In this document: positions 21,439-46,257 of the stretch, in pieces
How the letters are laid out: each line of letters opens with the position of its first letter
Numbering within the stretch: the first letter of the stretch is position 1
DNA from: an uncultured Enterobacteriaceae bacterium
Lineage (GTDB): Bacteria; Myxococcota_A; UBA796; GCA-2862545
Length of the DNA: 64,000 nt
NCBI GenBank assembly: GCA_964396405.1
Contig: CAYNFK010000006.1
Span: 7,971 to 71,970, forward strand
Reading direction: 5' to 3'
The notes under the pieces: model-generated
The model's database searches: none
Told to the model about the DNA's origin: nothing
Seen by the model: only the letters and a program-made list of their open reading frames with translations
Translations under genes and position numbers: made by a program

Positions 21439-21514
21439 CCTGCCTCCCGACATCGGTCCCAGGCATAGCACAGCCCGCCGGGGAGCCGCGCGGTGATCCG
21501 CTGGAGCGCGGGGA

Positions 21515-22324
21515 TCAGCCCTCGGCGGGGAGCAGCTCGAACTCGACGAGCGGGCCATCGGCCTCGCCATCGTTGGCCACCACGCTGACCTTCCAGCCCG
21601 CCTTGCTCGACGCAAGCGTCTTCTTGTCGAGCATCAGGCCCGTGTACTCGGACACCTCGCCCTCGGCGGGCGTGGCATCGGCGGGCCACCATGCGACCGT
21701 GTAGGTGCAGGGATCCGGCCGGGCCGCGAGCTCTTCCGGCGTGAACGGGGGCGAACCCGCAGCGCGCCGGGCCGCAGCTTCGTCGCGGTCGTTGTTCATC
21801 GCGTCGGCATCCACGCAGGAGAGCTGCAGGGACACATCCGACTTGCCGTCGTACGACGTGATCTCAGCCTCTTCGGCACCGATGAACCGCAGGCGAGCCG
21901 TGGGCGGCGTGTTCTGGATCGTGACCGATGCGGTGGCCGAGATGGCGCCGGCGCAGTCGCGCCACGGGAGGCCGCAGCCCCAGCCCTCGAAGGTGCCATC
22001 GTTGGGCGTGACGATCACGTCCCAGGTGTCGCCCGAGCGGGTGTCCTTGGCCGGCACGGTCTTGCTGGACTTGGTCTCATCGACCACGCCGTTGCGCTTC
22101 CACACGAACGTGTAGTCGATGGAGTCGCCATCCGGATCCACCGACTCGGTGGCGATCTGCAGCTCGAGCTTCGTGATGGTCATCACGGGCTCTTCTGCCC
22201 ACTTCAGCTCGGGCGCGCTCGGCGCTCCGTTGCTCGTGATGTAGACGCCAAGCAAGGCCACACCGGTCCAGAAGACACCGAGGTAGAGGCCCACAATCGG
22301 GGTGCTGATGTCGCGTCGAGCCAC
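21515..22324 (-). CDS. membrane-anchored protein with two Ig/cadherin-like repeat domains
   Basis: GTG start and a TM anchor. DPDGDSIDYTFVWKRNG...SGDTWDVIVTPNDG..VTIQNTPP is the same repeat type as in the 24515..28897 protein. Confidence 0.6.
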   Translation of the reverse strand: MARRDISTPIVGLYLGVFWTGVALLGVYITSNGAPSAPELKWAEEPVMTITKLELQIATESVDPDGDSIDYTFVWKRNGVVDETKSSKTVPAKDTRSGDTWDVIVTPNDGTFEGWGCGLPWRDCAGAISATASVTIQNTPPTARLRFIGAEEAEITSYDGKSDVSLQLSCVDADAMNNDRDEAAARRAAGSPPFTPEELAARPDPCTYTVAWWPADATPAEGEVSEYTGLMLDKKTLASSKAGWKVSVVANDGEADGPLVEFELLPAEG

Positions 22325-24379: not shown

Positions 24380-24514
24380 TCTCAGGCCGACGCACCGGAA
24401 CTCCTGTCGCCGACCCGCCTGGGTCCGCCTGACATTTCCCTGACGAAGATGCGGACCCCCCCTGTGTCGGCGTACAGTGCGCCTGCGGGCTCGCTGGTCC
24501 CGCAGGATGGGTTG

Positions 24515-27500: not shown

Positions 27501-28897
27501 GCGCGATCCGCGACACGGGCCAACTCGCGTGCTGGGGCTCGATCACCACCGCCCCCGCCGGCAGCACCTATGTCGAGATCGGGGTCGGCCTGCAGCATGC
27601 CTGCGCCCGCAATCAGATCGGCAGCCTCACCTGCTGGGGCGCGGCCACCAACGGGTCCACCACACCGCCACCGGGCGCGTTCAAGCGGCTGGCCGTGGGC
27701 GGCAACCACGCCTGCGCGCTGGCGTCCAACGGCACCGCCACCTGCTGGGGCTCCAACTCAGAGCTGCAGTCCACGCCGCCCGCTGGCGTCACCTTCCTCG
27801 ACCTGGCGGCAGGCGGGGAGTTCACCTGCGGCCTCACCACCGACCACACCCTGCGCTGCTGGGGCGACGAGCGCATCGGCACGCCGCCGTCGGGCACCTT
27901 CGAAGACGTGCAGGCCGGCGCGGTCCACGCGTGCGCCATCGACGCCGACGACCAGCTCACCTGCTGGGGCGACTCAGGGTTCGTGAGCCTCGATGTGCCC
28001 GCCGGGGACTACGCGGAAGTAGCACCCGGGAGCACCCACACCTGCGCGAACCGCACCGATGGTTCCACCACTTGCTGGGGCACGTCCTCGTACGGCGAGC
28101 AGATTCCGCCCACCATCGCTTACAACGTGCTCGTGCCCGGCAACCGCACCATCTGCGGCATCCGCAGCTCCAACGGCCAGGTCAACTGCTGGGGCGACAA
28201 CACGTACGGCGTGGCGAGTCCTCCCCTGCTGCCCAACGCCGTTGCGCTGGCGGTGGGCCCCACCCACGCGTGCGCCTTGCTCTCAGGGGGCTTGCTGTTC
28301 TGCTGGGGCGACGACACCTACGGCAAGGCCACCTCGCCGGGTGGACAGGGCTGGAAGTCCGTCGACGTCGGCGCCGAGCACACCTGTGGCGTGAACGATG
28401 TCGGCGCGATCGACTGCTGGGGCGACGACACGTTCGGCGAGGTCACGGGTCCGTTCACGGGCGGCCCCTACGCATCCGTCGCGGTGGGCACCGACCACAC
28501 CTGCGGCCTCACCCCCGGCGGCGCGATCTCGTGCTGGGGCACCAGCTCCCTCAACCGCCTCGCGGCACCGACCTCGGGCATTCACGCTGCGATCAGCGGC
28601 GGCGACCTCAACACCTGCGCGATCACGCCCTCCACCACGCTCACCTGCTGGGGTGACAACCAAGCCAACCGCTCCACACCCACCGTGCTCCCCGGCTGGA
28701 CCGCGCTGAGCATGGGCAGCTCACACGGCTGTGCGCGCAGCGCTGCCGGCGCGCTCACCTGCTGGGGCGACACCATCTACAAGGCCACCACCGTCCCGTC
28801 CTCAGAGCCCTACACCAGCGTGTTCGCAGGCGAGCGCATGACCTGCGGCCGCCGCTTCGACGGCCGGTCGCAGTGCTGGGGACTCATGGCTCATTGA
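24515..28897 (+). CDS. giant lipoprotein: about 10 tandem ~95-aa Ig/cadherin-like repeats followed by about 14 RCC1-like blades
   Basis: Start at MLRSTWSLVLFGMAC. Repeats are delimited by (V/T)xxxN(A/S)PP and contain DPDGD..Y.W..NG...RGD. The C-terminal 560 aa has 14 CWG units. Confidence 0.85.
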   Translation: MLRSTWSLVLFGMACSPPSEPPPVHIEPEAPTTLDTLRAVFDGGQELPVVATWKRDGAVVPGLNTLEVSADQTSRDQRWTVELALDAGDPDAPTTSASVTIGNAPPTGTVTLGPEGATANGTLLVEGAGSDPDGDPVTFRWSWSIDGTELPGESAETLQPATGRRGSVVRATGIPSDGRVDGEPATDELTLGNTTPIVRSVSILPDPATRAADVRAEVDAIDPDGDEITLVYAWKINGEEAGTSPIIPAERLYRGAVITLDVTASDATTTSEPKAAGAVYVRNAPPTIASATLSPGNATEATVLTCTPSGVVDADGDDVVELYRWTVNGQALPDARSSTLTGADFSRGDAVSCEVSGDDDDQVGPSVISNTVTIGNSPPTVTGVIRTASPLPGQSLQLDLVVTDLDGDEVELDYVWLVEGAEAGYASNLPPNTFSNDLDVACRITPSDPSGAGPSFTTPTVRIRNAIPQITGVVYTPETPTALTDLRVSASATDPENDPVSLIITWEVNDVAVPGVISDTLTKNYLSRGDSVRAVIVVSDATGTATPYKAMPVVVANAPPMVSAASISPSPPTRAGPATCTATGWIDADGDPQDVVYSWFLNAAPLANATPSLSASLFKRGDTLRCAVIPDDGFDLGSSVSSSTVTVGNAPPRLTSVTLSPATPTEASTIIASVSGLTDPDTQDTNNLSVSYVWYVNDAIVTGAAAAQLPAVAFNRGDSVRVLATPRDPTTSGTAVASAPVVVANSPPSIQSLTISPASPNTSTTVTAVLGATDPDPVDAASLTTTYRWRVDNFTVQESSLNTLSGSFFARGQQIEVSAVVSDGAAASPRFTATKVTVVNAPPTSPGVRVNPRWSRTNADDLYCELLTPPTDPDSDLPFTTFSWLRDGVAYPQAGDVGPQRTVYTNDTVPAEDLGEGEVWTCQATASDGTTTSVPGTSLARTGGFELSSLRSGTRYGCGVDENGVVRCWGLNDVGQALPPDGLLARRVDTGSSIACAIRDTGQLACWGSITTAPAGSTYVEIGVGLQHACARNQIGSLTCWGAATNGSTTPPPGAFKRLAVGGNHACALASNGTATCWGSNSELQSTPPAGVTFLDLAAGGEFTCGLTTDHTLRCWGDERIGTPPSGTFEDVQAGAVHACAIDADDQLTCWGDSGFVSLDVPAGDYAEVAPGSTHTCANRTDGSTTCWGTSSYGEQIPPTIAYNVLVPGNRTICGIRSSNGQVNCWGDNTYGVASPPLLPNAVALAVGPTHACALLSGGLLFCWGDDTYGKATSPGGQGWKSVDVGAEHTCGVNDVGAIDCWGDDTFGEVTGPFTGGPYASVAVGTDHTCGLTPGGAISCWGTSSLNRLAAPTSGIHAAISGGDLNTCAITPSTTLTCWGDNQANRSTPTVLPGWTALSMGSSHGCARSAAGALTCWGDTIYKATTVPSSEPYTSVFAGERMTCGRRFDGRSQCWGLMAH

Positions 28898-33067: not shown

Positions 33068-34981
33068 TCAGGGGCAGGCGGGAACCTCGACGGTCCACAC
33101 CCCCTCCAGCGTGTTCCCTTCTACGGTCGCGGTGCCGCGGCAACCCACAAAGGTCACCTCGATGCGTGCGCGCACGGCGCCTTCGGGCACGCCGAGGATC
33201 AGCGGGTTGTTGGTGCCGGGCGCCCCCACCGTAGACGCCACCGAGATCAGGATCTCCTCTGTGCCGGGCAGCACGGCGTCGGCCGCATCGTAGAAGACAG
33301 GGCGCGCCACGGCGCCTGCCACCGACAGGTCGGTGCGCGGCCCCACCTGCAGCGCCAGCCAGCGTGTGCCCTCGGCGGCCTGCCAGCGCACCACCTGCGC
33401 TTGGGCATCCGCGGCCTCGGCCTCGGCGTGGCTGCTCCACCACACCAGCACCGACCACGCGCCGCTGGGGTCCTGCACGGGCTGGAGGAAGCTCGCGTAG
33501 TGATGGGCCGCGGGCATCGGCAGGTCCACCACCGTGAACCGACCGCAGGTCGTGTCGTAGCAGTCGGGGCGCTGCAGGTAGGCCCGCTGGTTCATCTTCG
33601 GAAAGGGTCCGGCATCGCGCCCGAAGGTGACCAACACGTCCATCCAGCCATCGGCGTTCACGTCCCACTGCGCGCTCGGGAGCCACGCGATGTGGGTGAC
33701 GGGGGATGGCGGGGCCGCCAGCGCCCGGCTCAGCGGACCGGACTCCTCGAAGCCGTCGCCGGCTGCACGGGGACACAGCACCGAGACCGGCCACCTGCTC
33801 GACAATGTCGACACCAGCAGGCAGTCCTGCACCACGCGACCGGTCGGCGTGTCGGTGGGGAAGCGCACCATCGACGCCCCCATCGGCGTGAAGCAACCCG
33901 GCGACGACGACCCGCACACAGGCTCCAGGAACAGCGCGCCGTCCACCACGGCGCCCGTCAGGGAGTCGCGCGTGGGCTCGATGAACGTGTCGGGAACGCG
34001 CCGACCGCCCGGGAGGTACCAGCTGTAGTCGTGCGTGACGCCCGGCAGCACGCCGGTGGCGAACAGCAGGGCCCACGGGCGCACCGTCGGCTGCAGCGCG
34101 TAGGGCACCAGCGACCAGCCAAAGATGCCCGGCACGTCGTCGAAGCGCCCGACCTCCAGCACCAGGTCGTCGGTTGTGGCCGTTCGCAGCACAGCCAGGA
34201 TGTGGTCCGACCGATCCGCCTTCCACACCGGGAACACCAGGTCCATCCGGCCGTCGTTCTCGAGGTCCACCACCCCCAGCGGACCCCCGTCGGCGAACGA
34301 GAAGGCGGGCCCGGCCGTGCGGTAGGGTGCCGGTGTGAACTGCCCGGTGCCGTCGTTCCACCACAGCGGTGCCACCGCATCCGCCTCGTCGCCATTCACG
34401 ATGCCGCCCACGAGATCCGCGTCCCCGTCCCGATCCACGTCGAGCAGGGTGACGGTCGACAAGGAGCGCGTGATCGTGCCGCCCACCAGCCGGTCGGACA
34501 GCGGCTCGCCCACCACCAGCGTGCCCAGCGCCGGGTCGTAGCGGACCCATGGCGAGATCACGTCGACGCCATCGGCGTTCGGGCACACCTGGTTGGCCAG
34601 CAGCGCCTCCACGTGACCGTCGCCGTCGATGTCGGCGATGGCGATCGCCATGGCGCGGGCGCGGCGGCCGTCAGCGACGAGGGGCACACAGTCAGCGAGC
34701 GCCGCTTGGAGTTCATCGGAGAACAGCACGCCGTCGAGGGTGGGTCCGGGCGGCAGGTCGGTGTCGGCGATGGTGTCGGTGTCGGTGTCGGGAGGCGCGT
34801 CGGTGTCCGTCTCGTCGGTGGTGTCGGTCTCGGGAGGGGAGTCGGTGTCTGTGTCCGTGACCGTGTCGGTCTCGGTCTCCGTGACGTCGTCGGTGGCGGT
34901 GTCGGCAGCGTCCGGCCTGGGCGGCACGCAGCCGACCGCGAAGATCCACGCCGCAAGTGTAGGAGGACCCCTGTTTCTCAC
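33068..34981 (-). CDS. FG-GAP/VCBS repeat lipoprotein with an Asp/Thr-rich linker
   Basis: AWIFAVGC lipobox and a DTDTD linker. Repeated [29 protein letters not shown] and [10 protein letters not shown] Ca-binding-type loops. Confidence 0.75.
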
Positions 34982-36656: not shown

Positions 36657-36833
36657 CTACACCACCGGCTCCCGATCGAGGTCGGCGTAGGGGTAATGGC
36701 CGTGCTCGATGAGCTTGGCGAACAGGGCCTCAGTGCCGTTCTCGCGGGCGTAGTCCAGCTCCGAGCGATGGATGCGGACGGCAGCCATCAGCCTGGCATG
36801 ATCGTCGAAGGCGGCGCACTGCTCGGCGTCCAT
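36657..36833 (-). CDS. small hypothetical protein (58 aa)
   Basis: Only the C-terminal part of ORF 36657..36995 looks protein-like (MDAEQCAAFDDHARLMAAVRIHRSELDYARENGTEALFAKLIEHGHYPYADLDREPVV). The call is weak. Confidence 0.3.
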   Translation of the reverse strand: MDAEQCAAFDDHARLMAAVRIHRSELDYARENGTEALFAKLIEHGHYPYADLDREPVV

Positions 36834-37419
36834 GACCAGCCGGGCCGTCACGGGGCGTTCGCAGGCATGGCCCACCCGACGCCGTTGGCGAGCGAGCGGC
36901 TGGTGTGTCGAGGCAGTCCGGGCAGGGACGCAAGGACCCCACGACTCGTCGCCGCCGGAGACGTACACCGTTGTGGCATTGGTCGTGCTGACCAAAAAAC
37001 TGGGACGCCGTCGCGCAAGTCAGAGCCACGCCGTTTCTGATCGGCCTCCACTTCAGCGAGCGCGACATGGCCTGGATGACGAATAGCGCGCTTCGGTCCT
37101 AGCCACCCCAGCTTCACCGCTGGCGGAGCGCTCGTGAGGTTCCGCGGCCCATGTTGGGCCTTGTTCGTGGCATGCCAGCTTGTGGCGGGAGTCTCCCAAA
37201 GTCGGTCGCGGACGCCCCTTCGACCATCGCAGCCTCGCTAGTGCCGTCGAGACGACCGACCATTCCGGGGTGCCCAGAGCGCATTTGGGCCATCCACGTT
37301 CGTCCGTCTCTTGCCCCCGCCGGACTTGAACCCCATTCTCCTGATGACATTGCAGCCGAGGAGCCCCATCGGACCGGATGGCATCGGCGGAATTCTTAGA
37401 TTCGGTTCCACAAAGTGCC

Positions 37420-37447
37420 TTGACACGCCAAGCGGCGCGTCTAGAGA
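37420..37447 (+). promoter_or_regulatory. candidate sigma70-like promoter (TTGACA-N16-TAGAGA)
   Basis: Read directly from the sequence, about 35 nt upstream of the GGGAGGAG RBS and ATG at 37482. Confidence 0.3.
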
Positions 37448-37481
37448 TCCACGTCGCATGAATCGCGGGAGGAGACGTCAG

Positions 37482-37757
37482 ATGGCGGAAGACAAGAAGG
37501 GGCCGATGGAGAAGACTGGTGGCGCAGGCGCCGCCTCGGGCAGAGCCGACGGCGCAGGCGCGTCATTTTACGGTATCGCGAGTGATGGTGCCGGCTCGCG
37601 GCGCATCCCGATCCAGAAGGGTGCTGGCGCAGCCGGCGGTCTGGGTTCGTCCGACCCATTCGCAGCGGCCGCGATAAATCCGCAGGGATCGGCGGGGGGA
37701 CCCAACCCCGCGCCCGGGTCGAGCGGTTCTTCGACCAACGGTTCGTCAAAGAAGTGA
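37482..37757 (+). CDS. small Gly/Ala/Ser-rich, probably disordered protein (91 aa)
   Basis: Internal ATG of ORF 37311..37757, preceded by GGGAGGAG. The sequence is MAEDKKGPMEKTGGAGAASGRADGAGASFYG...GSSGSSTNGSSKK. Its stop overlaps the GTG start of the CHAT gene (GTGA). Confidence 0.45.
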   Translation: MAEDKKGPMEKTGGAGAASGRADGAGASFYGIASDGAGSRRIPIQKGAGAAGGLGSSDPFAAAAINPQGSAGGPNPAPGSSGSSTNGSSKK

Positions 37758-39151
37758 CGGCACGGGTCTCCCAGGAGCGAACCGTCGTCCTACTTCAAAC
37801 CGGCGATTTACGCGAGTACATCGTCGTCAGGGTCGAGAACTCTGGGACGAACGATGAGATCTTCAAGGAGTACTGGGAGTTCTACATCACGGACTCCGTG
37901 AACCGCTACCCGTACGCCTCCGATGGCGTCCTCGGTGAGGCCCCGCCACACTACAAGTGGGGGCCGCTCCACGGAAGGTTCGTCATCGCAGTCCAGCTTC
38001 GCGATCGCACGCTGCGACCGGGCGAGGTCCGCTACATCGGGGCCGGCGCGCTCCGGGTAAAGCGCGCGACGGTCGACGGGGTCGCGATCAGTCTCGACGA
38101 TCCCTGCTTGGAGTTCGACGGGCCAGAGCAGTCGTCCGTGCACGTGGTGTTCCCATTTCGTGCAGAGGGGTGGGCGATCACCACAAAGGACATGACCGCA
38201 TGTACTCACGTGGCATCTACGTCGTTCATCCCAAGTCCGGACGAACCGCGGCACGTCCAGGTACGCGGGACTCACCCCCGCCGGCCGCTGTGGACCGAAC
38301 TCGTCAAGCTCGATGTCCGGGTCGCCATGCTTCGGGCCGTCGTCGCGGCCGACGCGTGCGGAGAGGATGTGGCCATCCTCGCGCCTGCGCACGACGACCC
38401 GCTTCGCTCGCAGTGGGACAGCCTGTTAAGCGAAATCCGCTTCAATTCCGCCGAACCCGTCGCGACCCGTCAAGCCAGTTACCGGGCCCACCTTCGGCGA
38501 CTGCAAGACAGCCGTCCAGCGTTGGCGGCAAGGATGCCGTCAATGCCCGATACCGTCAGCGTGCTCTACCTCGCCTCCAGCCCCGTCGACGCGACGACGC
38601 TCGGGACCGACGAGGAAGCGCGAGAGATTCGTGACGAGCTCCAACGCGCCGAACTTCGCGACAAGTTCGAGTTCGTCGTCCGTCAAGCCGTCCGCGCCGA
38701 GGACCTGCAACGCCACGTCCTACGCGAAAGGCCCGTCGTGCTCCACTTCAGCGGCCACGGAGCAGAAGACGAAGGGCTGGTCTTCGAGGATCGCGACCGC
38801 CTCGGCGTAATTGTGTCCGCCGGTGCACTCGCCCGGTTGCTAAAAGCGGCCGAAGGTCCGACCCGCGTCGTGCTGTTGAACGCCTGTTACTCGGCCCATC
38901 ACGTCGAGGAGCTCGCCAAGGCCGTCGACGTGGTCATCGCAATGACTCGCGTCGTGCAGGATCATGCGGCAGTTCGCTTCGCGGCAGCGTTCTACCGAGC
39001 CCTCGCGTTCGGCAGTTCGGTGTCCGCAGCTTTCAATCTCGCGGTGAACGAGCTGGAGATACTCGGCATCACTGGTGAGACCGACGTTCCGTCGATGCAC
39101 ACGCGCGCAGGGGTCATCGCCAGCGACATCTTCCTCGCGCCACCGCGGTAG
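37754..39151 (+). CDS. protein with an unassigned N-terminal ~270 aa and a C-terminal CHAT (caspase-like) protease domain
   Basis: The C-terminal 190 aa reads SVLYLASSP...RPVVLHFSGHG (His), TRVVLLNACYS (Cys) and VVIAMTRVVQDHAAVRFAAAFYRALAFGSSVSAAF, the CHAT tail pattern. Confidence 0.8.
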   Translation: MTARVSQERTVVLLQTGDLREYIVVRVENSGTNDEIFKEYWEFYITDSVNRYPYASDGVLGEAPPHYKWGPLHGRFVIAVQLRDRTLRPGEVRYIGAGALRVKRATVDGVAISLDDPCLEFDGPEQSSVHVVFPFRAEGWAITTKDMTACTHVASTSFIPSPDEPRHVQVRGTHPRRPLWTELVKLDVRVAMLRAVVAADACGEDVAILAPAHDDPLRSQWDSLLSEIRFNSAEPVATRQASYRAHLRRLQDSRPALAARMPSMPDTVSVLYLASSPVDATTLGTDEEAREIRDELQRAELRDKFEFVVRQAVRAEDLQRHVLRERPVVLHFSGHGAEDEGLVFEDRDRLGVIVSAGALARLLKAAEGPTRVVLLNACYSAHHVEELAKAVDVVIAMTRVVQDHAAVRFAAAFYRALAFGSSVSAAFNLAVNELEILGITGETDVPSMHTRAGVIASDIFLAPPR

Positions 39152-39174
39152 CAATCGCGCCGTCTGAACTCGAC

Positions 39175-39219
39175 CGCGGCCCGGCGTGCATGCACCCGCC
39201 CACGTTGGAAGGGCCCGCG
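39175..39219. terminator. GC-rich hairpin between convergent CHAT and RT genes (candidate bidirectional terminator)
   Basis: CGCGGCCC...GGGCCCGCG forms a stem with one bulge. It encloses the 10-bp palindrome GTGCATGCAC. There is no U-tract. Confidence 0.3.
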
Positions 39220-39240
39220 AGAACGATCTAGAAGCCTGAC

Positions 39241-40854
39241 CTACGAGTACGGGTCCGTCCCGCGCTCGCGTAGAGTCTCCGCGTTGATGCGGGGCGGCGC
39301 AGGGACGAACTGCGCATCCGCGAGGTGCTCGATGAAGCCCACGAGTGTCTCACCCTCGAAGTCCTTCTTCTTGATGGTGCGGTACTCGGGTGTCCGTTCA
39401 GCCGATTGCAAGGCCTGAACCGCGATCCGACGGGCGCGGGTCACCATGTGCGAGGCGTCGGCGTTTACGTACCGCTTGATGCTGTGGTGGTCCGTGTAGT
39501 CGCCGCACTGTGCCAAATAGAGCGTCGCCCCCATAACCTCTGGGTCGTGGCCGTCTCCCGAAAGCAGCTGGTGCGCCCGTCTCGTGATCGCAGCGCTCTG
39601 AACCTTCATCTGCGTTGCGAGCAGCCAAAGCTGGTAGTTCTGCCAAGGGTAGACGAAGATCGGGTCCCCGGTCAGCATCTTCTCCAGTTCCCGACACTCG
39701 CGGTCCCCGAACGGCATCACCGACAGGAAGCGGCACAGCTTCTCCGACGCCTCCGGCCACCGACGAAGGGCACCCAACGCAAGCAACGGCAACTCAGCAA
39801 TTAACGGGTGCGTCACATCCTTGTACTGCATGATGTCGACGATGCGGCCCAAGCTAAACCTGAACACCGATTCCCCGACGCCGCCCTGAAGAAGCAGCTC
39901 GTGCATCTTGTCGAAGAGCAAGGCAGCGGCCCGCTCGACCGTACCACGATTTTTCGCGCCGTTGAGCAGGCCCTCCACGGTCTCGAAGAACGGATCCGGC
40001 AGGTCATGCACCTTTTTCATCCCGTCGTCGTCGGGGCCGACAATTACCGTCTTCGAGGCGTTCACATCCAGCCCGATATTGCGCAGCTCGTCGATGAGCG
40101 CGATCATCGCCCGGCGAGCAGTTGCCTCGTCGGGCGCCACGATTTTGAAGTCGTCGACCCATCGAAAGCAGGTGAATCCCATCCGCTCCATCTTTTTGTC
40201 GATGGAGTCGAGGAAGACATTACCAAGAAAAGAGCTGGGGGCCATATTCTGCGGCAGGCCGACATCGCCCTGCGGCGCCCATACCTTTAGGCAGTCGAAC
40301 AATGATTTCAGGGTCGCATCAATCGAGGGCGTCATCTCGCCTACAAGAATGCCGCGAAGGCGATCCGAAAGGGTCCGAAATCGGAGGTTCGAAAAGTAGG
40401 AGGTGATGTCCGTCTTGACCAGCCAGCTCGCCGGCTCCTTGACAAGCAGATCCCGCACGTCACCGTTGAACTTGTTCCACTGCGCGGGGAACTGGCGAAG
40501 GAACATCCAGGGCGAGTCCGGCGAGCGCAGCCGGTACCCGTATGAACTCGGACTGAGCTTCGCGTCGACCAGCGGGGCGAGCTTGTCCACGAGGGCTTGG
40601 TACACGATGCGGTCGATGGGCCGCATCTGAACAGCGTGCCTCAACGTGTAGTTCGACTTGGGGATGTACAGATCCACAGCGGGCAACGGAATAAAGCTGT
40701 CCGCCGCCTTCTCAAGACGAAGCACCGTGTCGTCCATCGATGCGAAGAGGTCGGCACACCCCAAGGGGTCCGGCCAGAAGTCGTCGTGGATGTCGTTCTT
40801 GTACCGCTTGAGCGCGAGCTTCCAGTCAAGCTCAAGTGCCGTTAGGTCGATCAC
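39241..40854 (-). CDS. reverse transcriptase, defence-associated (UG/Abi/DRT-like) type with a long helical C-terminal extension
   Basis: GTG start. RT motifs present: IPKSNYTLRHAVQMRPIDRIVYQAL; LVKTDITSYFSNL; GLPQNMAPSSFLGNVFLDSID; FRWVDDFKIV; GLDVNASKTVIV. About 250 aa of helical sequence follows. Confidence 0.9.
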   Translation of the reverse strand: MIDLTALELDWKLALKRYKNDIHDDFWPDPLGCADLFASMDDTVLRLEKAADSFIPLPAVDLYIPKSNYTLRHAVQMRPIDRIVYQALVDKLAPLVDAKLSPSSYGYRLRSPDSPWMFLRQFPAQWNKFNGDVRDLLVKEPASWLVKTDITSYFSNLRFRTLSDRLRGILVGEMTPSIDATLKSLFDCLKVWAPQGDVGLPQNMAPSSFLGNVFLDSIDKKMERMGFTCFRWVDDFKIVAPDEATARRAMIALIDELRNIGLDVNASKTVIVGPDDDGMKKVHDLPDPFFETVEGLLNGAKNRGTVERAAALLFDKMHELLLQGGVGESVFRFSLGRIVDIMQYKDVTHPLIAELPLLALGALRRWPEASEKLCRFLSVMPFGDRECRELEKMLTGDPIFVYPWQNYQLWLLATQMKVQSAAITRRAHQLLSGDGHDPEVMGATLYLAQCGDYTDHHSIKRYVNADASHMVTRARRIAVQALQSAERTPEYRTIKKKDFEGETLVGFIEHLADAQFVPAPPRINAETLRERGTDPYS

Positions 40855-40985
40855 ACACCCCCGGGGAAGCGGGTATCACGGCGCGCCAGAACGAGGACAG
40901 CCGCGGCACACCTGCACGTGGAAGCGGCCCCACCGCGCCGCACCATCGCCCCGGGCTTGCCACCCCGCTCCGCCATGAACGCCCC

Positions 40986-41822
40986 CTACGGACACCCCAC
41001 CACCACCTCCAGGTCATACGTCACACACCCCACCTCGGTCGTGTACACCACAAACCACACCCGCCGGTCCACCGTGCGCGTGTTGGTGAACGACACGGTC
41101 TCCACGTCCGCGGTGGTGTCGGACATGTCGAGCATCAGGTAGCTGCCGGCCTCATGCACCGACAGATCGAGGTCCTTGCTCGCATGGGCGAACGTAATCT
41201 CGGCGGTGAAGCTGCACCCCGCAGGCACCACCTGATCGAAATAGTCGACGTCGCCCGGCGCATGCTCGAGGGCGGCGTAGGTCTGAGCCACGCCGTTGGG
41301 TGGCACCGCCAACGGGGTGCCCGTCAGCCAGGTGTTGTTGAGCTCGAACGCATCTGAGCCGCAGATGCCGGTGAAGCCGCCCCCATCGGTGTCGCCGTCC
41401 GTGTCCGCGACGGTGCCGGTGTCGACCTCGGTGTCCACGTCCGTGTCGCCGTCCGTGTCCGTGTGCGTCTCGACCTCCGTGTCCACGTCGGTGTCGGGGA
41501 GCGCATCGGTCTCCGGGTCGGTGTCCGTCTCGACCTCGGTGTCCGTCTCCAGGTCGGTGTCCGACTCCACGTCCGTGTCCGACTCGACCTCGGTGTCCGA
41601 CTCCACCTCGGTGTCCGACTCCACGTCCGTGTCCGACTCCACGTCCGTGTCCGTGTCGCCCGGGGTGTCCGACTCGGTCCCGCTCGGATCGTCGGTCTCG
41701 ACCTCGGTGTCCGTGGCCTCCGCCTCGGTGTCGTCCTTCAGCCGGATCGACCTCGTAGTGGTGCAGGCCGCAAGCAGGCAGACGGCGAGCACGCAGCTTC
41801 GGGACGTCGACGTGGCGCGCAA
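40986..41822 (-). CDS. lipoprotein with a DT/ES-rich repeat linker and a C-terminal pre-peptidase-C-terminal-like beta domain
   Basis: ORF 40986..41942. The probable start is the TTG at about 41822 after GAGG, giving LRATSTSRSCVLAVCLLAAC (lipobox). (DTDVES/DTEVES)n repeats are present. Confidence 0.65.
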   Translation of the reverse strand: MRATSTSRSCVLAVCLLAACTTTRSIRLKDDTEAEATDTEVETDDPSGTESDTPGDTDTDVESDTDVESDTEVESDTEVESDTDVESDTDLETDTEVETDTDPETDALPDTDVDTEVETHTDTDGDTDVDTEVDTGTVADTDGDTDGGGFTGICGSDAFELNNTWLTGTPLAVPPNGVAQTYAALEHAPGDVDYFDQVVPAGCSFTAEITFAHASKDLDLSVHEAGSYLMLDMSDTTADVETVSFTNTRTVDRRVWFVVYTTEVGCVTYDLEVVVGCP

Positions 41823-41957
41823 GGGGACCTCGGCGGGGTGGTGAGCCCTAACGGATGGGCGCGTCGCAGACCCCACCACCCTGGACGGCCCGTGTTTGCA
41901 GATCGTGCCGCCGCCGCACCCAGGGTGCGTCACCGCGCTCACTGTCGGAGGTTCTTC

Positions 41958-43093: not shown

Positions 43094-45409
43094 ATGCGCG
43101 CTGCCTCCCTCCTCCTCCCCATGCTGGTCGCCTGCAGCGCCGCGATCCTCGGCACCGACGATCCGAACGACACCGACCCGTTCGGCGACGCCCTCTGTGA
43201 TGGCAACCCCTGGTACCCCGACGTCGATCGCGACGGCGCGGGGGACGAGGCGCGGCTGGTGCGCCAATGCGACCGACCCGAGCCCGACTGGATCGCGGTG
43301 GGCGGGGACTGCGACGACGGCTCGGCCGACGTGGGGCCCGGCGCCGAAGAGCGGCCCAACGCGATCGACGACAACTGCGACGGCACGGCCGACGAGGGCA
43401 CGGTGCTGGTCGACGACGACCTCGACGGCGCCTGCGAGGACCCTGTCGGGCCCTGCACCGACGGGACGGTGCCCGGCGACTGCGACGACGCCGACGCCGC
43501 GCGCTTCCCCGGCGCGGTGGAGCTGTGCAACCGCGTCGACGACGACTGCGACGGCGTGGTGCCCGCTGACGAGGCCGACGGCGACTCCGACGGCTTCCTC
43601 GCCTGCGCGGACTGCAACGACAAGCGGGCCGAGATCTCGCCGGACGCGGCCGAGACGTGCAACGGCATCGACGACGACTGCGATCGGGTCGTCGACGACG
43701 TCGATGCGGACGGTGACGGGGCGATCGCCTGCGAGGGCACCACGGCGCTCGACGTCCTGCTGGTGGTCGACAACTCGTGCTCGATGTTCGCCGTCCAGGC
43801 ATCGCTCGCCGCACAGTCCGGGTTCCTCCTGCGCACGCTCGAGCGCGAGCGCATTGCGTGGCGCGTCGGCGCCCTCGCCGCCGACGACGGCCTGCGCTTG
43901 TTGGCACCGGCGATCGACGCCGCCGCTGGGGACACGCTTGCTGCGGTCGCGGAGGCCGTCCGGCCGGCCGACCGCACGATGGACCCGGAGCGGCCGCTGC
44001 AGAGCGCCGTCACCTTCCTGGCCACCCCTGCGGGGCGCGCCTTTCGCCGCCCCGGCGCCGGACTGGCGGTCGTGGTGGTCACCGACGAAGACGACCGCTC
44101 CGTCCTGCTCCCCGAAGAGGCGCTTGCAGGACTTCGCGGGAGCGTGGATGCGTTCGTGCTCGGCGTCGTCGGGGGTGGATGGACGGGATGTGAGGCGGCG
44201 CGGGGCGCGGCGAGCCCGTCACCACGGCTGCTGGCCACCCTCGAGCTCACCGATGGCCCCTTCGCCAGCGTGTGCACCGACACCTGGTTCAAGGACTGGG
44301 GCACCGCCTGGCTGCCCAGGGCGGGTGTCGACTGCGACGACACCAACGCTGCCGTGCACCCGGAGGCGCAGGAGCGCTGCAACACCGTCGACGACGACTG
44401 CGACGGGGTCGCCGACGACGACCACGACCAGGACGGCAGCACGACCTGCAACGGCGACTGTGATGACCGCGACCGAACGCGAGCACCCGGCCTACCCGAG
44501 CTGTGCGACGGCCTCGACAATGACTGTGCCAACGGCGTCCCGGCCGAGGAAGACGACCGCGATGCCGACCGCTGGCGGGTGTGTGACGGCGACTGCGACG
44601 ACGCCGTGCGCTCCGTTCACCCCGGCGCGGTCGAGATCTGCGGCGACAGCATCGACCAGGACTGCGACGGGCCCGACGGCGGCACCGTCGATGACGACGG
44701 TGACGGCTACACCGTGTGCCAGGGCGACTGCGACGACCAGGACGACCTCACGTTTCCGTGGGCGCCTGAGCATCCGTTCTCGGGTCGCGACGAGGACTGC
44801 GACGGCTATGTGGACGGACAAGACGCCGATGTGATCACCGCAGCCCAGGATGTCGGTGACAGCTCGCTGCTCACGGTGGGCAGCCCCCGTCCGCTGGTCA
44901 CCCTGTGCGGCAAGACCTGGTACGAGGCCACCGTCTCGGCCAACGGCTACTTCGTGCCCGGCTACAGGCTCTACTTCGAGGACCAGCCGACCCTGGCCGA
45001 TCTGCGCATCCAGGCCCCGTTCGTGGCCGCGGCATGGGGCGACCTTGATCCCTCCGCCTGGACCGGCGGCAGCTTCCTGCAGGGGCACGGCGCGCGAGGT
45101 CCGATATGGTTCATCCAGCGCCAGGGTGGCGCGTTCACGGTTGTCTGGGACGACGTGCCCGACAAGGCCACGGGCCTGCCGGTGCGGGCCATCGCCACCG
45201 TGCACAACGACCAGGTGGAGATCGCCCGCCCCTACGCCGGGGGCGCCAAGCTCATGGGAGCGAGCTGCGATCCCGACCCCGCCACCTTCCTCAAGCCCGC
45301 GCCCACCGAGTCCACCCTGTGCCTCGCCGGCTTCGACGTCGGAGCGGCCGGCGCGTTCGTCAACCAGAGCACCGAGGGCATGGTGGCCACGTCGGTGTGC
45401 ACGCCGTGA
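43094..45409 (+). CDS. lipoprotein with MopE-type Cys-rich metal-binding-like repeats and a vWA-like insert
   Basis: Start at MRAASLLLPMLVAC. There are at least 9 repeats of DCDDxxxxxxPGAxExCNxxDDDCDG, plus LLVVDNSCSM (a vWA MIDAS-like DxSxS). Confidence 0.8.
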   Translation: MRAASLLLPMLVACSAAILGTDDPNDTDPFGDALCDGNPWYPDVDRDGAGDEARLVRQCDRPEPDWIAVGGDCDDGSADVGPGAEERPNAIDDNCDGTADEGTVLVDDDLDGACEDPVGPCTDGTVPGDCDDADAARFPGAVELCNRVDDDCDGVVPADEADGDSDGFLACADCNDKRAEISPDAAETCNGIDDDCDRVVDDVDADGDGAIACEGTTALDVLLVVDNSCSMFAVQASLAAQSGFLLRTLERERIAWRVGALAADDGLRLLAPAIDAAAGDTLAAVAEAVRPADRTMDPERPLQSAVTFLATPAGRAFRRPGAGLAVVVVTDEDDRSVLLPEEALAGLRGSVDAFVLGVVGGGWTGCEAARGAASPSPRLLATLELTDGPFASVCTDTWFKDWGTAWLPRAGVDCDDTNAAVHPEAQERCNTVDDDCDGVADDDHDQDGSTTCNGDCDDRDRTRAPGLPELCDGLDNDCANGVPAEEDDRDADRWRVCDGDCDDAVRSVHPGAVEICGDSIDQDCDGPDGGTVDDDGDGYTVCQGDCDDQDDLTFPWAPEHPFSGRDEDCDGYVDGQDADVITAAQDVGDSSLLTVGSPRPLVTLCGKTWYEATVSANGYFVPGYRLYFEDQPTLADLRIQAPFVAAAWGDLDPSAWTGGSFLQGHGARGPIWFIQRQGGAFTVVWDDVPDKATGLPVRAIATVHNDQVEIARPYAGGAKLMGASCDPDPATFLKPAPTESTLCLAGFDVGAAGAFVNQSTEGMVATSVCTP

Positions 45410-45426
45410 TCCCGAGGCCCCTGACC

Positions 45427-46257
45427 ATGCTGAGCTTGCCGCGTCCGTTGCTGGTGTGGACCTTTCTCGCAGCGTGTGCCGGAGGCGTGTCCGACGAGAA
45501 CGACAAGCCGTCCGACACCGACGACACCGACACCGACACGGTCGAGACGGACCCCGTCACCACCGACGACACCGACACCGACACGGTCGAGACGGACCCC
45601 GTCACCACCGACGACACCGACTCCGATGTCGGCAGCACCGACGAAACAGACACCGTCGACACCGACACCGTCACCACCGACGAAACAGACACCGTCACCA
45701 CCGACGAGACGGACACCGTCACCACCGACGAGACGGACACCGTCGACACCGACACCGTCACCACCGACGAGACAGACACCGTCGACACCGACACCGTCAC
45801 CACCGACGAGACGGACACCATCGACACCGACACCGACACCGACACGGGTTCCGACACCGACACCGACACCGACTTCGTCGACACGGACACGGGCACGTTC
45901 CCGCCCACGCCCGTGGACCCCTGCCTGGCGGTCATCCCGCCTCAGACGGTGCTCATCACCTCGGACCAGCCCTCCGCCGTCAACGACGGCTTCTTCTGGG
46001 TGTGTCGCAACGTGACCCTGTCGATCACCGGCCAGCGCAACATCGTGTTCGTGGAGGTCGGCGGAGAGGTGATCCTCAACGGCCCGCGCAACGTGGTGTA
46101 CGCGAAGGACCGGTCGGACGTGGTGGTGGTTGGACGCGAGCAGGACATCCGCCACGACACCCGCACGGGAATCCTGATCCTCACGGGCGGCCAAGCGCAG
46201 ACCCAGCTCTGCCCGGGCCTCACCTTCGACCTCACCCAGGCACCCCCGGGCTGCTGA
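45427..46257 (+). CDS. lipoprotein with a long Asp/Thr repeat linker and a C-terminal beta-rich domain
   Basis: Start at MLSLPRPLLVWTFLAAC within ORF 45106..46257. The linker is (DTDTVETDPVTTD)/(ETDTVTTD)n. Confidence 0.7.
   Translation: MLSLPRPLLVWTFLAACAGGVSDENDKPSDTDDTDTDTVETDPVTTDDTDTDTVETDPVTTDDTDSDVGSTDETDTVDTDTVTTDETDTVTTDETDTVTTDETDTVDTDTVTTDETDTVDTDTVTTDETDTIDTDTDTDTGSDTDTDTDFVDTDTGTFPPTPVDPCLAVIPPQTVLITSDQPSAVNDGFFWVCRNVTLSITGQRNIVFVEVGGEVILNGPRNVVYAKDRSDVVVVGREQDIRHDTRTGILILTGGQAQTQLCPGLTFDLTQAPPGC
45523..45612 (+). repeat. two tandem 45-bp units (encoding DTDTDTVETDPVTTD) within the DT-repeat tract
   Basis: Read directly: units at 45523-45567 and 45568-45612 are identical. Confidence 0.8.
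45568..45626 (+). repeat. left arm of a perfect 59-bp inverted repeat
   Basis: GACACCGACACCGACACGGTCGAGACGGACCCCGTCACCACCGACGACACCGACTCCGA equals the reverse complement of 46852-46910. Confidence 0.85.

What the first reader, a model, noticed from the sequence alone, without database searches (positions are those of the whole stretch)
37482..39151. CHAT protease with an unassignable N-terminal region, co-translated with a 91-aa Gly/Ala/Ser-rich protein
The 465-aa protein has a compact C-terminal CHAT domain (LHFSGHG ... LLNACYS ... FAAAFYRAL). Its first ~270 aa look beta-rich (e.g. REYIVVRVENSG, RFVIAVQLRD, VHVVFPFRAEGWAITT) and match nothing I recognise. The upstream ORF, MAEDKKGPMEKTGGAGAASG...GSSGSSTNGSSKK, is low-complexity. 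It has a strong RBS, and its stop overlaps the GTG start of the CHAT gene. A disordered small protein coupled to a caspase-like protease could be a substrate, pro-toxin or inhibitor. This would be analogous in logic, not sequence, to protease-activated effectors such as bacterial gasdermins. It is much shorter than a typical bacterial gasdermin and is not recognisably one.
Basis: partly seen in the sequence, partly recalled or inferred. Interest (0 to 1): 0.65.

Follow-up and report, generated by a model that had tools for sequence, protein, structure and literature searches.

The report
Disordered peptide plus swappable-effector defence protein
A small disordered peptide gene and a CHAT-protease gene form a conserved two-gene unit from a rare, unannotated family of probable bacterial immune modules, in which the same peptide and sensor-like domain are joined to different killing domains, so the peptide is probably a partner of the sensor domain and not a substrate of the protease.

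Summary
A 91-aa Gly/Ala/Ser-rich ORF (37482-37757) overlaps by 4 nt the GTG start of a 465-aa protein (37754-39151) with a C-terminal CHAT domain (His335/Cys378 present). The small ORF is a real gene: against the only full-length homologue (74% identity), differences fall 10/6/35 on codon positions 1/2/3 and all indels are in frame. DNA homology between the two loci covers exactly these two genes.

The interpretation needs changing. A profile of residues 1-270 found ten remote relatives. They share the N-terminal region but carry other C-terminal effectors: ThsB-type TIR, an LmuA-like domain, a PNP nucleosidase, EAD5. In all ten contexts read, 1-3 tandem small disordered ORFs lie directly upstream, and in nine they carry a G-x-G...[S/D/N]-P-F core. 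The peptide therefore follows the N-domain, not the protease. A substrate or pro-toxin role (gasdermin/EACC1 logic) is unlikely; a ligand or regulator of the N-domain fits better.

The N-domain models confidently as a beta-sandwich distantly like VIT, M1-peptidase N-terminal and ribophorin-I domains. Neither it nor the peptide matches Pfam, NCBIfam or PADLOC.

Best reading: a new, very rare peptide-plus-sensor-effector defence module in Myxococcota. The mechanism is inferred. The adjacent UG9 reverse transcriptase is probably a separate system.

The parts
37467..37474 (+). Shine-Dalgarno sequence GGGAGGAG, 7 nt upstream of the small ORF's ATG
   Evidence: Read directly from the sequence. L001 has GAAGGAGG at the equivalent place.
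37482..37757 (+). Small peptide gene: 91 aa, Gly/Ala/Ser-rich, predicted disordered
   Evidence: ORF list. Coding signature against L001: codon-position differences 10/6/35, in-frame indels. DNA homology with L001 begins at 37481. Orthologues are L001 5126-5362 and P0122. pLDDT is below 50 except around the DPF motif.
37617..37670 (+). Conserved peptide core K-G-A-G-A-A-G-G-L-G-S-S-D-P-F-A-A-A (aa 46-63), followed by Pro67
   Evidence: Identical in the three close variants. P59, F60 and P67 are invariant in nine peptide/N-domain pairs. Related G-x-G...[SDN]PF cores occur in the upstream peptides of the distant relatives.
37754..39151 (+). Sensor-effector gene: 465 aa; the GTG start overlaps the peptide gene's TGA stop (GTGA)
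   Evidence: The full-length orthologue P0002 is 74% identical, and both genes are conserved together.
37754..38278 (+). N-domain, aa 1-175: 13-stranded beta-sandwich shared with relatives that carry other effectors
   Evidence: Profile search E=2e-8 to 1e-4 against 1.84 billion representatives. Alignment A3. AlphaFold2 pLDDT 88.8, pTM 0.87. Foldseek matches to ribophorin-I/Ost1, the M1-peptidase/LTA4H N-terminal domain and VIT.
38294..38563 (+). Helical region, aa 181 to about 270, linking the N-domain to the effector; its first helix carries the conserved D-D-x-x-A-x-L motif
   Evidence: Helix 181-201 in the model. D187 and A191 are conserved. Pairwise homology among relatives extends to about aa 260-310.
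38591..39043 (+). CHAT (caspase-fold) protease domain, aa 280-430
   Evidence: Pfam PF12770 E=1.8e-10. The closest solved structure by sequence is 8tl0_A, 'CHAT domain-containing protein', E=2.7e-11. More than 200 CHAT-domain homologues are fused to TIR, NB-ARC, AAA, TPR and EAD domains.
38756..38758 (+). Codon of the predicted catalytic His335 (HFSGH*G)
   Evidence: Position computed. It aligns with HFIGHG of 8tl0_A.
38885..38887 (+). Codon of the predicted catalytic Cys378 (LNAC*YS)
   Evidence: Position computed. It aligns with LNACC of 8tl0_A.

Best explanation
The locus is a self-contained two-gene conflict (anti-phage type) module from a previously unannotated, very rare family. Gene 1 encodes a short intrinsically disordered peptide with a conserved core (G-x-G, a few residues, then [S/D/N]-P-F, then a Pro about 7 residues later) and a variable Pro/Ser/Ala/Gly-rich tail. 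Gene 2 encodes a sensor-effector protein with three parts: a constant N-terminal beta-sandwich and helical region, and a swappable C-terminal effector. Here the effector is a CHAT protease with an intact His/Cys dyad.

Shown:
- The two genes are conserved as one unit.
- The peptide gene is under purifying selection.
- The N-domain recurs with TIR, LmuA-like, PNP and EAD5 domains in the effector position.
- Peptide genes (1-3 in tandem) accompany the N-domain whatever the effector is.

Inferred:
- The peptide's core docks on the N-domain. The nearest folds of that domain (M1-peptidase N-terminal domain, ribophorin-I, VIT) are, from general knowledge, non-catalytic protein- or peptide-binding modules.
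- This complex controls the effector, most likely by holding it off, much as a labile antitoxin or a guarded bait would.
- Loss, modification or displacement of the peptide during infection would release the effector, possibly through oligomerisation. The CHAT domain would then act as the toxic output by cleaving cellular or phage proteins, in the same position where relatives deploy NAD-consuming TIR domains or nucleases.

The confidence of 0.55 is for the whole statement. By part: about 0.8 for 'conserved peptide plus N-domain module with swappable effectors, of conflict-system type', about 0.5 for 'the peptide binds and regulates the N-domain', and about 0.3 for 'it is specifically an inhibitor'.
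For: - Cassette boundaries: blastn homology between the window and L001 runs from 37481 to 39114, covering exactly the peptide and CHAT genes. The flanks are unrelated.
- Coding selection on the peptide gene, plus a third variant with the same overlap.
- N-domain relatives P0123-P0132 carry TIR, EAD5 or PNP domains by Pfam, and ThsB-type TIR (2.5e-51), LmuA (7e-16) or a PN-superfamily effector (2.8e-31) by PADLOC. All-against-all blastp confirms the N-domain homology and finds no third shared gene.
- All ten contexts read have 1-3 small ORFs directly upstream on the same strand, with gaps of -4 to +29 nt.
- The motif regex gave 13 hits in 278,196 six-frame residues, 11 of them within 640 nt upstream of the large gene, against 1.7 hits expected overall.
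- P59, F60 and P67 are invariant across nine pairs.
- The N-domain model is confident and has distant fold matches.
- Neighbourhoods look like defence or mobile islands: a UG9 reverse transcriptase here, and PemK, Eco57I methylase, integrase, resolvase, HNH and transposase genes elsewhere.
- The cassette lies in a low-GC island, 0.57-0.68 against 0.70-0.75 in the flanks.
Against: - No experiment or structure shows that the peptide binds the N-domain. A fused peptide plus N-domain AlphaFold2 run left the peptide disordered, with only residues 57-62 (SDPFAA) above pLDDT 50, so that test is inconclusive.
- By profile alone, the link between the window's peptide and the distant peptides is weak. 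With the window clade held out, a core HMM ranked L001's peptide 1st and the window's 4th of 2,528 ORFs, with non-significant E-values. The window's core also has a 2-residue longer spacing, and the strict regex missed it.
- The peptides next to the PNP relative lack the PF motif, and one of the two next to P0125 has P-L in its place.
- The family has only about 12 representative clusters, so the co-occurrence statistics are small.
- The fold matches are modest (TM 0.45-0.58, rmsd 6-9 A).
- The direction of regulation (inhibitor or activator) and the trigger are unknown.
- A defence role is inferred from domains and context only.
Confidence: 0.55

Rival explanations
1. One reading: the small protein is a substrate or pro-toxin of the CHAT protease. 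Cleavage would release a toxic fragment or remove an inhibitor, as with gasdermin, EACC1 or Pepco.
For: The pair is tightly coupled. Small proteins encoded upstream of caspase-like proteases are established protease-activated effectors (EACC1 and Pepco in 10.1101/2025.11.14.688446; EACC1-caspase in PMC7159879). The CHAT dyad is intact.
Against: The same peptide type accompanies TIR, LmuA-like, PNP and EAD5 versions of the large protein, which have no protease. The peptide has no transmembrane or amphipathic segment (maximum KD19 0.79). It has no Pfam, NCBIfam or PADLOC hit, which rules out EACC1, Trypco and gasdermin models. The caspase_w_EACC1 model scores 19 bits against a cut-off of 140.
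Confidence: 0.1
2. The small ORFs are regulatory leader peptides (upstream ORFs). Their translation, or ribosome stalling on the Pro-rich and S-P-F stretches, would set expression of the toxic downstream gene. The peptide product itself would have no function.
For: Stop and start overlap or lie within 29 nt. Some tails contain poly-Pro runs, such as PPPPPP in L013 and L010. The frequent C-terminal Lys-Lys is encoded by AAGAAG-type purine runs directly before the next start codon, and these could serve as its ribosome-binding site.
Against: An amino-acid motif is conserved across loci with no detectable DNA similarity, and within the close pair the changes are mostly synonymous. The peptides occur as 2-3 tandem paralogues of 56-91 aa, each with its own start, which is unusual for leader peptides. 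The window peptide has its own strong RBS.
Confidence: 0.12
3. The cassette works together with the adjacent UG9 reverse transcriptase (39241-40854, minus strand) as a three-gene RT-protease system, by analogy with the UG9-large variants that carry a fused protease.
For: The RT is convergent, 89 nt away, and lies in the same low-GC island. The identical arrangement appears in a second sample (L005). Some UG9 RTs are fused to a trypsin-like protease alongside an MBL hydrolase (PMC9226505).
Against: The only other full-length cassette (L001-L004) has no RT. None of the other ten family loci has an RT next to it. The orientation is convergent. The RT's GC content (0.57-0.61) is lower than the cassette's (0.63-0.68). 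The known UG9 partners are PolA or trypsin plus MBL, not CHAT.
Confidence: 0.08
4. The large protein is a secreted polymorphic toxin, with a constant N-terminal trafficking domain and a variable C-terminal toxin, used against competitors and not for immunity.
For: The constant-N, variable-C architecture is also typical of polymorphic toxins. One locus, L007, has a PAAR-motif gene 1.4 kb upstream.
Against: No conserved downstream immunity gene exists, and the genes downstream are unrelated and often convergent. One relative carries EAD5, an intracellular adaptor of NTPase-centred conflict systems (PMC7159879). The TIR and nuclease-like domains match Thoeris ThsB and Lamassu LmuA models. Only 1 of 11 loci has a secretion-related neighbour.
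Confidence: 0.05

Closest known systems
EACC1-caspase and Pepco/Trypco-protease two-gene modules (Kaur et al. 2020, PMC7159879; Evans et al. 2025, 10.1101/2025.11.14.688446)
   Same: A small non-enzymatic protein is encoded immediately 5' of a caspase-fold protease gene. Both occur in conflict-system contexts and are enriched in multicellular bacteria such as Myxococcota. The associated domains are modular.
   Different: In those systems the small protein and the protease are the constant pair, and the small protein is a folded, membrane-active pro-toxin that the protease cleaves. Here the constant pair is the peptide and the N-terminal beta-sandwich, the protease is one of several interchangeable effectors, and the peptide is disordered with no hydrophobic segment. 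There is no sequence match.
Single-chain sensor-effector defence proteins with swappable effectors (Lamassu LmuA effector variants, Thoeris ThsB-type TIR proteins, SAVED-CHAT)
   Same: The effector domains of the family match these models: LmuA 7e-16, ThsB 2.5e-51, and the CHAT part of SAVED_CHAT 6.6e-6. Effectors are exchanged on a constant regulatory domain.
   Different: The constant domain is not SAVED, an SMC partner or SIR2/Macro. It is an unannotated beta-sandwich. No LmuB/C, ThsA or cyclase genes are nearby. The obligatory partner is a disordered peptide.
Type II toxin-antitoxin modules
   Same: A small, probably labile, disordered protein is encoded first and is translationally coupled to a larger protein that carries a potentially toxic enzymatic domain.
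   Different: The peptide has no DNA-binding domain. It does not vary with the toxin type, whereas antitoxins are toxin-specific. It occurs in 1-3 tandem copies. The putative toxin has a large constant N-terminal domain.
VIT domain, M1-aminopeptidase N-terminal domain and ribophorin-I luminal domain (fold level only)
   Same: A two-sheet beta-sandwich of about 175-200 residues. Foldseek gives E=2.5e-7 to 3e-4 with probability 1.0.
   Different: Sequence identity is 9-14%, TM-scores are 0.33-0.58 and rmsd is 6-12 A. There is no Pfam hit to VIT or Peptidase_M1_N. Homology is not established.

Membership tests
CHAT / caspase-fold peptidase (Pfam PF12770) | Profile match above the curated threshold | tested here: met
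   41.2 bits against a cut-off of 24, E=1.8e-10, aa 280-430.
CHAT / caspase-fold peptidase (Pfam PF12770) | Catalytic His (G-H-G) and Cys (N-A-C) dyad | tested here: met
   His335 in HFSGHG and Cys378 in LNACYS align with HFIGHG and LNACC of 8tl0_A. Catalysis itself was not tested.
Bacterial gasdermin-protease system | An adjacent gasdermin gene (about 240-300 aa, gasdermin fold) cleaved by the protease | tested here: not met
   The only coupled gene encodes a 91-aa disordered peptide with no family hit.
EACC1-caspase two-gene system | A 5' gene encoding EACC1 (conserved transmembrane helix with a small-residue patch), together with an EACC1-type caspase | tested here: not met
   No Pfam or NCBIfam hit for the peptide at E<=0.1. 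Maximum 19-residue hydropathy is 0.79, so there is no transmembrane helix. The caspase_w_EACC1 model scores 19.2 bits against a cut-off of 140. EACC1 features are taken from PMC7159879.
Pepco/Trypco-protease module | A small folded beta-barrel-forming protein (about 117 aa) that matches Trypco models | tested here: not met
   No Pfam hit. The peptide is predicted disordered.
SAVED-CHAT (CBASS / type III CRISPR-associated) | An N-terminal SAVED cyclic-oligonucleotide sensor domain | tested here: not met
   The PADLOC SAVED_CHAT hit covers only profile positions 301-456, the CHAT part. The N-domain model matches VIT, M1-N and ribophorin folds, and no SAVED structure appears in the top 50.
UG9 reverse-transcriptase defence system | A UG9-class RT | tested here: met
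   The neighbouring ORF at 39241-40854 (minus strand) matches RT_UG9_small with E=7.6e-95. This applies to the neighbour, not to the cassette.
UG9 reverse-transcriptase defence system | An associated family-A DNA polymerase, or a fused trypsin-like protease with an MBL hydrolase (PMC9226505) | tested here: not met
   The RT's neighbours are the CHAT gene and an Asp/Thr-repeat protein gene. The CHAT cassette occurs without an RT elsewhere.
Type II toxin-antitoxin | The antitoxin neutralises the toxin by direct binding and is proteolytically labile | not testable with these tools
   Only the gene order and the coupling are consistent with this.
Polymorphic toxin system | A cognate immunity gene immediately downstream that varies with the toxin domain | tested here: not met
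   No conserved downstream gene exists, and the downstream genes are often convergent and unrelated.
New peptide plus N-domain-effector family (proposed here) | An N-terminal beta-sandwich homologous to alignment A3 | tested here: met
   The window protein seeded the profile. Ten relatives scored E=2e-8 to 1e-4 against 1.84 billion sequences, and reciprocal blastp gave 1e-8 to 1e-13.
New peptide plus N-domain-effector family (proposed here) | One or more upstream, same-strand small ORFs with a G-x-G...[SDN]-P-F core and a low-complexity tail | tested here: met
   The window core is KGAGAAGGLGSSDPFAAA...P. Caveat: with the window clade held out, the profile E-value is not significant.

The most novel reading that the evidence does not exclude
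The family is a new type of peptide-gated immune sensor. Tandem intrinsically disordered peptides would each anchor to a VIT-like beta-sandwich through a shared short linear motif and expose a different variable tail. These tails would act as guarded baits: a phage factor that degrades, modifies or sequesters a bait releases whichever effector is fused (CHAT, TIR, nuclease, nucleosidase or an EAD adaptor). That would amount to a bacterial decoy/guard system built from short linear motifs.
Probability: 0.25. Interest if true: 0.8.

Novelty: new variant of a known kind. Interest (0 to 1): 0.62.

Why it matters
If the inferred logic holds, this adds a new sensor/regulator module to the set of bacterial immune parts: a beta-sandwich domain with an obligatory disordered peptide partner, joined to several of the main effector types (caspase-fold protease, TIR, nuclease, nucleosidase, Death-like adaptor).

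Regulation of immune effectors by short linear motifs in disordered peptides is, to my knowledge, common in eukaryotic signalling but hardly documented in prokaryotic defence. Tandem peptide paralogues with variable tails would suggest a way to diversify what is sensed without changing the sensor.

The family also corrects a tempting misreading. A small ORF next to a caspase-like protease is not necessarily its substrate.

It occurs in Myxococcota, including the cultured Myxococcus dinghuensis (WP_253974322.1), so it can be tested. Its extreme rarity limits its general importance: about 12 representative clusters among 1.84 billion, with every 90%-identity cluster that was checked a singleton.

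Tried and rejected
- Pfam, NCBIfam and PADLOC scans of the peptide and of residues 1-270 gave no hits. The N-domains of the relatives also hit nothing.
- A word-indexed search with the peptide profile returned only the window peptide itself and P0122.
- A word-indexed search with the 12-sequence N-domain profile returned nothing at all, not even the query. I treat this as a limit of the tool's candidate step, not as evidence.
- Collection scans for more loci found nothing: A1 in genome contigs, metagenome contigs and viral contigs, P0130 in viral contigs and A8 in metagenome contigs.
- Rfam, tRNA and promoter/terminator scans of the island found nothing relevant.
- A full-length alignment with CHAT-only homologues was misaligned by MAFFT and was not submitted.
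- The allowed unpaired fusion run was inconclusive.
- A profile of the REase-like C-terminal domain of P0123, P0125, P0129 and P0130 found no solved relative. Calling it a nuclease therefore rests on the PADLOC LmuA hit for P0123 and on a D...E-L-K motif that I read by eye.
- The empty-site/synteny test with the flanking methyltransferase failed: the relatives are only 56-60% identical and share no neighbours.
- Literature searches for EACC1, CATASP, UG9, VIT with conflict systems, and small ORFs in defence systems found no description of this family.
Full report
OBSERVATION

The small ORF runs from ATG 37482 to TGA 37757 (91 aa), with GGGAGGAG 7 nt upstream of the ATG. The 465-aa ORF starts at GTG 37754, overlapping that stop (GTGA), and ends at 39151.

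Pfam finds a CHAT domain at aa 280-430 (E=1.8e-10, 41.2 bits against a cut-off of 24). The predicted catalytic His335 and Cys378 align with the dyad motifs of the closest solved CHAT protein by sequence, 8tl0_A (E=2.7e-11). Residues 1-270 and the small protein hit nothing in Pfam, NCBIfam or PADLOC.

IS THE SMALL ORF A GENE?

This genome is about 70% GC, so long spurious ORFs are common and the question needed a real test. The 5.8-billion-protein search found exactly one full-length homologue of the CHAT protein: P0002, 74% identical, from four metagenome contigs.

- In those contigs a 78-aa ORF sits in the same place with the same 4-nt overlap.
- DNA similarity between the two loci runs from window 37481 to 39114. 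It begins at the small ORF's ATG and ends near the CHAT stop, and the flanks are unrelated.
- Over 77 aligned codons the differences fall 10/6/35 on positions 1/2/3, with 29 synonymous and 15 non-synonymous codon changes. All three indels are in frame, and both loci have an RBS.
- A third variant, P0122 (91 aa, from an NCBI assembly), again has a downstream gene overlapping its stop by 4 nt.

The small ORF is therefore a conserved, translated-frame gene, and the conserved unit is exactly these two genes.

WHAT IS THE N-TERMINAL REGION?

All other CHAT hits cover only the C-terminal 37-57% of the protein. A two-sequence profile of residues 1-270, searched exhaustively against 1.84 billion representatives, returned ten remote relatives (E=2e-8 to 1e-4). 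They align over about 210 residues with a consistent set of conserved positions: G17, N29, T46-D47, D57, R93, D116-P117, P134, A154 and D187. All-against-all blastp confirms the relationship.

Their C-terminal halves differ:

| Relative(s) | C-terminal domain | Evidence |
|---|---|---|
| P0124, P0126 | TIR, ThsB-type | Pfam TIR_2; PADLOC ThsB 2.5e-51 and 2.8e-36 |
| P0131 | EAD5 | Pfam 1.2e-17 |
| P0132 | PNP/nucleosidase | Pfam 1.2e-16; PADLOC PN-superfamily effector 1.3e-27 and PDC-M60C 2.8e-31 |
| P0123 | LmuA-like domain | PADLOC 7e-16 |
| P0125, P0129, P0130 | homologous to the P0123 domain | |
| P0128 | unassigned | no hit |

A constant N-terminal module joined to interchangeable, typical immune effector domains is the signature of a conflict system. 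In this frame the CHAT domain of the window protein occupies the effector position. The CHAT domain itself belongs to a large clade that is fused elsewhere to TIR, NB-ARC, AAA, TPR, pentapeptide and EAD domains.

With the 12-sequence alignment, AlphaFold2 gives a confident model: pLDDT 88.8, pTM 0.87, 13 strands and then a long helix. The best Foldseek matches are ribophorin-I/Ost1 (E=2.5e-7, TM 0.58), the N-terminal domain of LTA4H and M1 aminopeptidases (about 1e-5, TM about 0.46) and the VIT domain of inter-alpha-inhibitor heavy chain. A VIT-family protein is also the top viral hit. Identity is only 9-14% and rmsd is 6-12 A, so this is a fold-level lead, not demonstrated homology. From general knowledge, these are non-catalytic domains that bind proteins or peptides.

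THE PEPTIDES FOLLOW THE N-DOMAIN

I read the context of nine of the ten remote relatives (P0127, a 266-aa sequence on a 1,465-nt contig, was not looked up) and of P0002. Every one has 1-3 small ORFs (48-91 aa) directly upstream on the same strand. The gap between the nearest peptide stop and the start of the large gene is -4 to +29 nt. Several of these ORFs had not been called by the original annotators (L010, L015, L017, L018).

Apart from the divergent pair next to the PNP relative, and one L015 peptide that has P-L instead of P-F, they share a core. Examples:
- KGAGAGASTASPFAA and EGAGFGASRENPFAAA (L008)
- GGGAGISRGNPFVG and KGVGAGISNGNPFTT (L009)
- KGAGGGMSQGSPFTG (L013)
- KGMGGGVSRESPFGG (L016)
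- GIGVTAGPRSPFAS (L017)
- EKGVGFSASRTDPFAG (L018)
- KGAGAAGGLGSSDPFAAA (window)

The core is followed by a Pro/Ser/Ala/Gly/Thr/Gln-rich tail of 24-48 residues. In a nine-pair alignment, P59, F60 and P67 are invariant.

Controls:
- The regex G.G.{4,7}[SDN]PF hits 13 times in 278,196 six-frame residues of the loci. Eleven of those hits lie within 640 nt upstream of the large gene on its strand, against 1.7 hits expected anywhere.
- The link to the window's own peptide is weaker. The window's core has a 2-residue longer spacing and was missed by that regex. A core HMM built without the window clade ranks L001's peptide 1st and the window's 4th of 2,528 ORFs, with non-significant E-values.
- Assignment of the window's peptide to this set therefore rests on motif, position, size and composition together.

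No other gene is shared among the eleven neighbourhoods.

Known small partners of defence proteases are specific to a protease and are folded, membrane-active pro-toxins released by cleavage: gasdermin, EACC1, Pepco/Trypco (PMC7159879; 10.1101/2025.11.14.688446). Here the peptide is paired with the N-domain whether the effector is a protease, a TIR domain, an LmuA-like domain, a nucleosidase or merely an adaptor domain. It has no hydrophobic segment and is predicted disordered. A substrate or pro-toxin role is therefore unlikely. A role as ligand or regulator of the N-domain is the economical reading.

MECHANISM (INFERRED)

The peptide's conserved core binds the beta-sandwich and controls the fused effector. 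An inhibitory role, like a labile antitoxin or a guarded bait, fits three things: the order with the small gene first, the translational coupling, and the toxicity expected of the effectors. The variable tails and the tandem paralogues suggest several baits.

I could not test binding. In the permitted unpaired fusion run the peptide stayed disordered, with only residues 57-62 (SDPFAA) rising above pLDDT 50. That result is inconclusive.

RIVALS

- Leader-peptide regulation. Purine-rich Lys-Lys codons just before the next start could be its RBS, and poly-Pro stretches could stall ribosomes. Against it are the conserved amino-acid motif across loci with no DNA similarity and the tandem paralogues, each with its own start.
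- A combined system with the adjacent UG9 reverse transcriptase. The RT (39241-40854, minus strand; RT_UG9_small, E=7.6e-95) is convergent and lies in the same low-GC island. It is absent from every other family locus, and the known UG9 partners are PolA or trypsin plus MBL (PMC9226505).
- A polymorphic toxin. Against it: there is no downstream immunity gene, one relative carries EAD5, and the effectors are of the ThsB and LmuA types.

CONTEXT AND DISTRIBUTION

The cassette and the RT lie in a stretch of GC 0.57-0.68 between flanks of 0.70-0.75. The host is an uncultured member of the Myxococcota: the flanking methyltransferase is 56-60% identical to Myxococcota MAGs, and the window carries RCC1-repeat and Asp/Thr-repeat proteins.

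One family member, P0130 (WP_253974322.1, annotated 'hypothetical protein'), is from the cultured Myxococcus dinghuensis. The other loci are 56-71% GC and sit among mobile or defence genes: PemK, Eco57I methylase, integrase, resolvase, HNH and transposases.

The family is very rare. There are 11 representatives at E<=1e-3 among 1.84 billion, all eight 90%-identity clusters checked are singletons, and five further collection scans found nothing.

NOVELTY AND VERDICT

No family library and no paper I could find describes the N-domain, the peptide or their pairing. The general logic, a constant regulatory module with swappable effectors and a small partner, is known. The parts, and the use of tandem disordered motif-bearing peptides as the obligatory partner, appear to be new. 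I rate it a new variant of a known kind and of moderately high interest, tempered by its rarity and by the fact that the mechanism is entirely inferred.

Noticed in passing
window 39241-40854 (- strand): A 537-aa reverse transcriptase of the UG9-small class (PADLOC E=7.6e-95; Pfam RVT_1). It is convergent with the CHAT gene, 89 nt away. It has the lowest GC in the region (0.57-0.61) and no adjacent family-A polymerase, which is the usual UG9 partner.
   Followed up: partly
window about 36800-41200: A low-GC island (0.57-0.68 against 0.70-0.75 in the flanks) holding the peptide gene, the CHAT gene and the RT. It was probably acquired horizontally. No tRNA, integrase or flanking repeats were identified, and no empty site could be found in related genomes.
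   Followed up: partly
window 36657-36995 (- strand): A 112-aa ORF with a weak, sub-threshold match to the C-terminal end of the SUFU family (Pfam E=1.5e-4, 22.2 bits against a cut-off of 25). It may be a fragment of an immunity-type protein at the edge of the island.
   Followed up: no
window 40986-41942 (-), 33068-34981 (-), 45106-46257 (+): Several proteins with long Asp/Thr/Glu dipeptide-like repeats (DTDTD..., ETDTV...), apparently secreted or lipoproteins. The opposite-strand frames of these regions give long spurious ORFs.
   Followed up: no
window 24449-28897 (+) and 19711-21615 (-): Two large RCC1-repeat proteins (Pfam RCC1_2, E=7e-61 and 2e-53).
   Followed up: no
L001 6994-16756: The orthologous cassette sits in a protease-rich neighbourhood. 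A 1037-aa trypsin plus alpha/beta-hydrolase protein lies with a ParB-like protein, followed by a 388-aa protein, a second 711-aa CHAT protein and a 1565-aa protein. A 174-aa ORF upstream of the cassette (4501-5025) has no counterpart in the window.
   Followed up: partly
window 37739-37756 and the equivalent positions in L001, L007, L013, L015: The frequent C-terminal Lys-Lys of the peptides is encoded by AAGAAG or AAAGAAG just before the start of the large gene. This conservation may reflect a ribosome-binding site for translational coupling and not a function of the peptide.
   Followed up: partly
window 37482-37616 (peptide aa 1-45): The window's peptide appears to carry a degenerate extra N-terminal copy of the Gly-rich core (GGAGAASGRADGAGASFYG). 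Twelve residues of it are deleted in the L001 orthologue. It may be a remnant of two fused tandem peptide genes.
   Followed up: no
window 38093-38110 (N-domain aa 114-119, LDDPCL) and the same column in all relatives: The N-domain has a conserved D-D-P-x-hydrophobic motif (D116 invariant, P117 in more than 90% of sequences) that resembles the peptides' [S/D/N]-P-F core. In P0128 it reads RDPF. This may be coincidence or an intramolecular mimic.
   Followed up: no
L010/L011 1002-1314 and L015 339-893: The peptides next to the PNP-type relative (P0132) have G-V-T-V-G-G and poly-Pro but no P-F. Those next to P0125 have L-D-G-L-D-L-D in place of G-x-G. The peptide core is therefore not uniform across the family.
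   Followed up: partly
tool behaviour: The word-indexed protein search with the 12-sequence N-domain alignment returned no hits at all, not even the proteins in the alignment. The exhaustive HMMER search with a 2-sequence profile found 11. A negative result from the word-indexed tool should not be read as absence.
   Followed up: no
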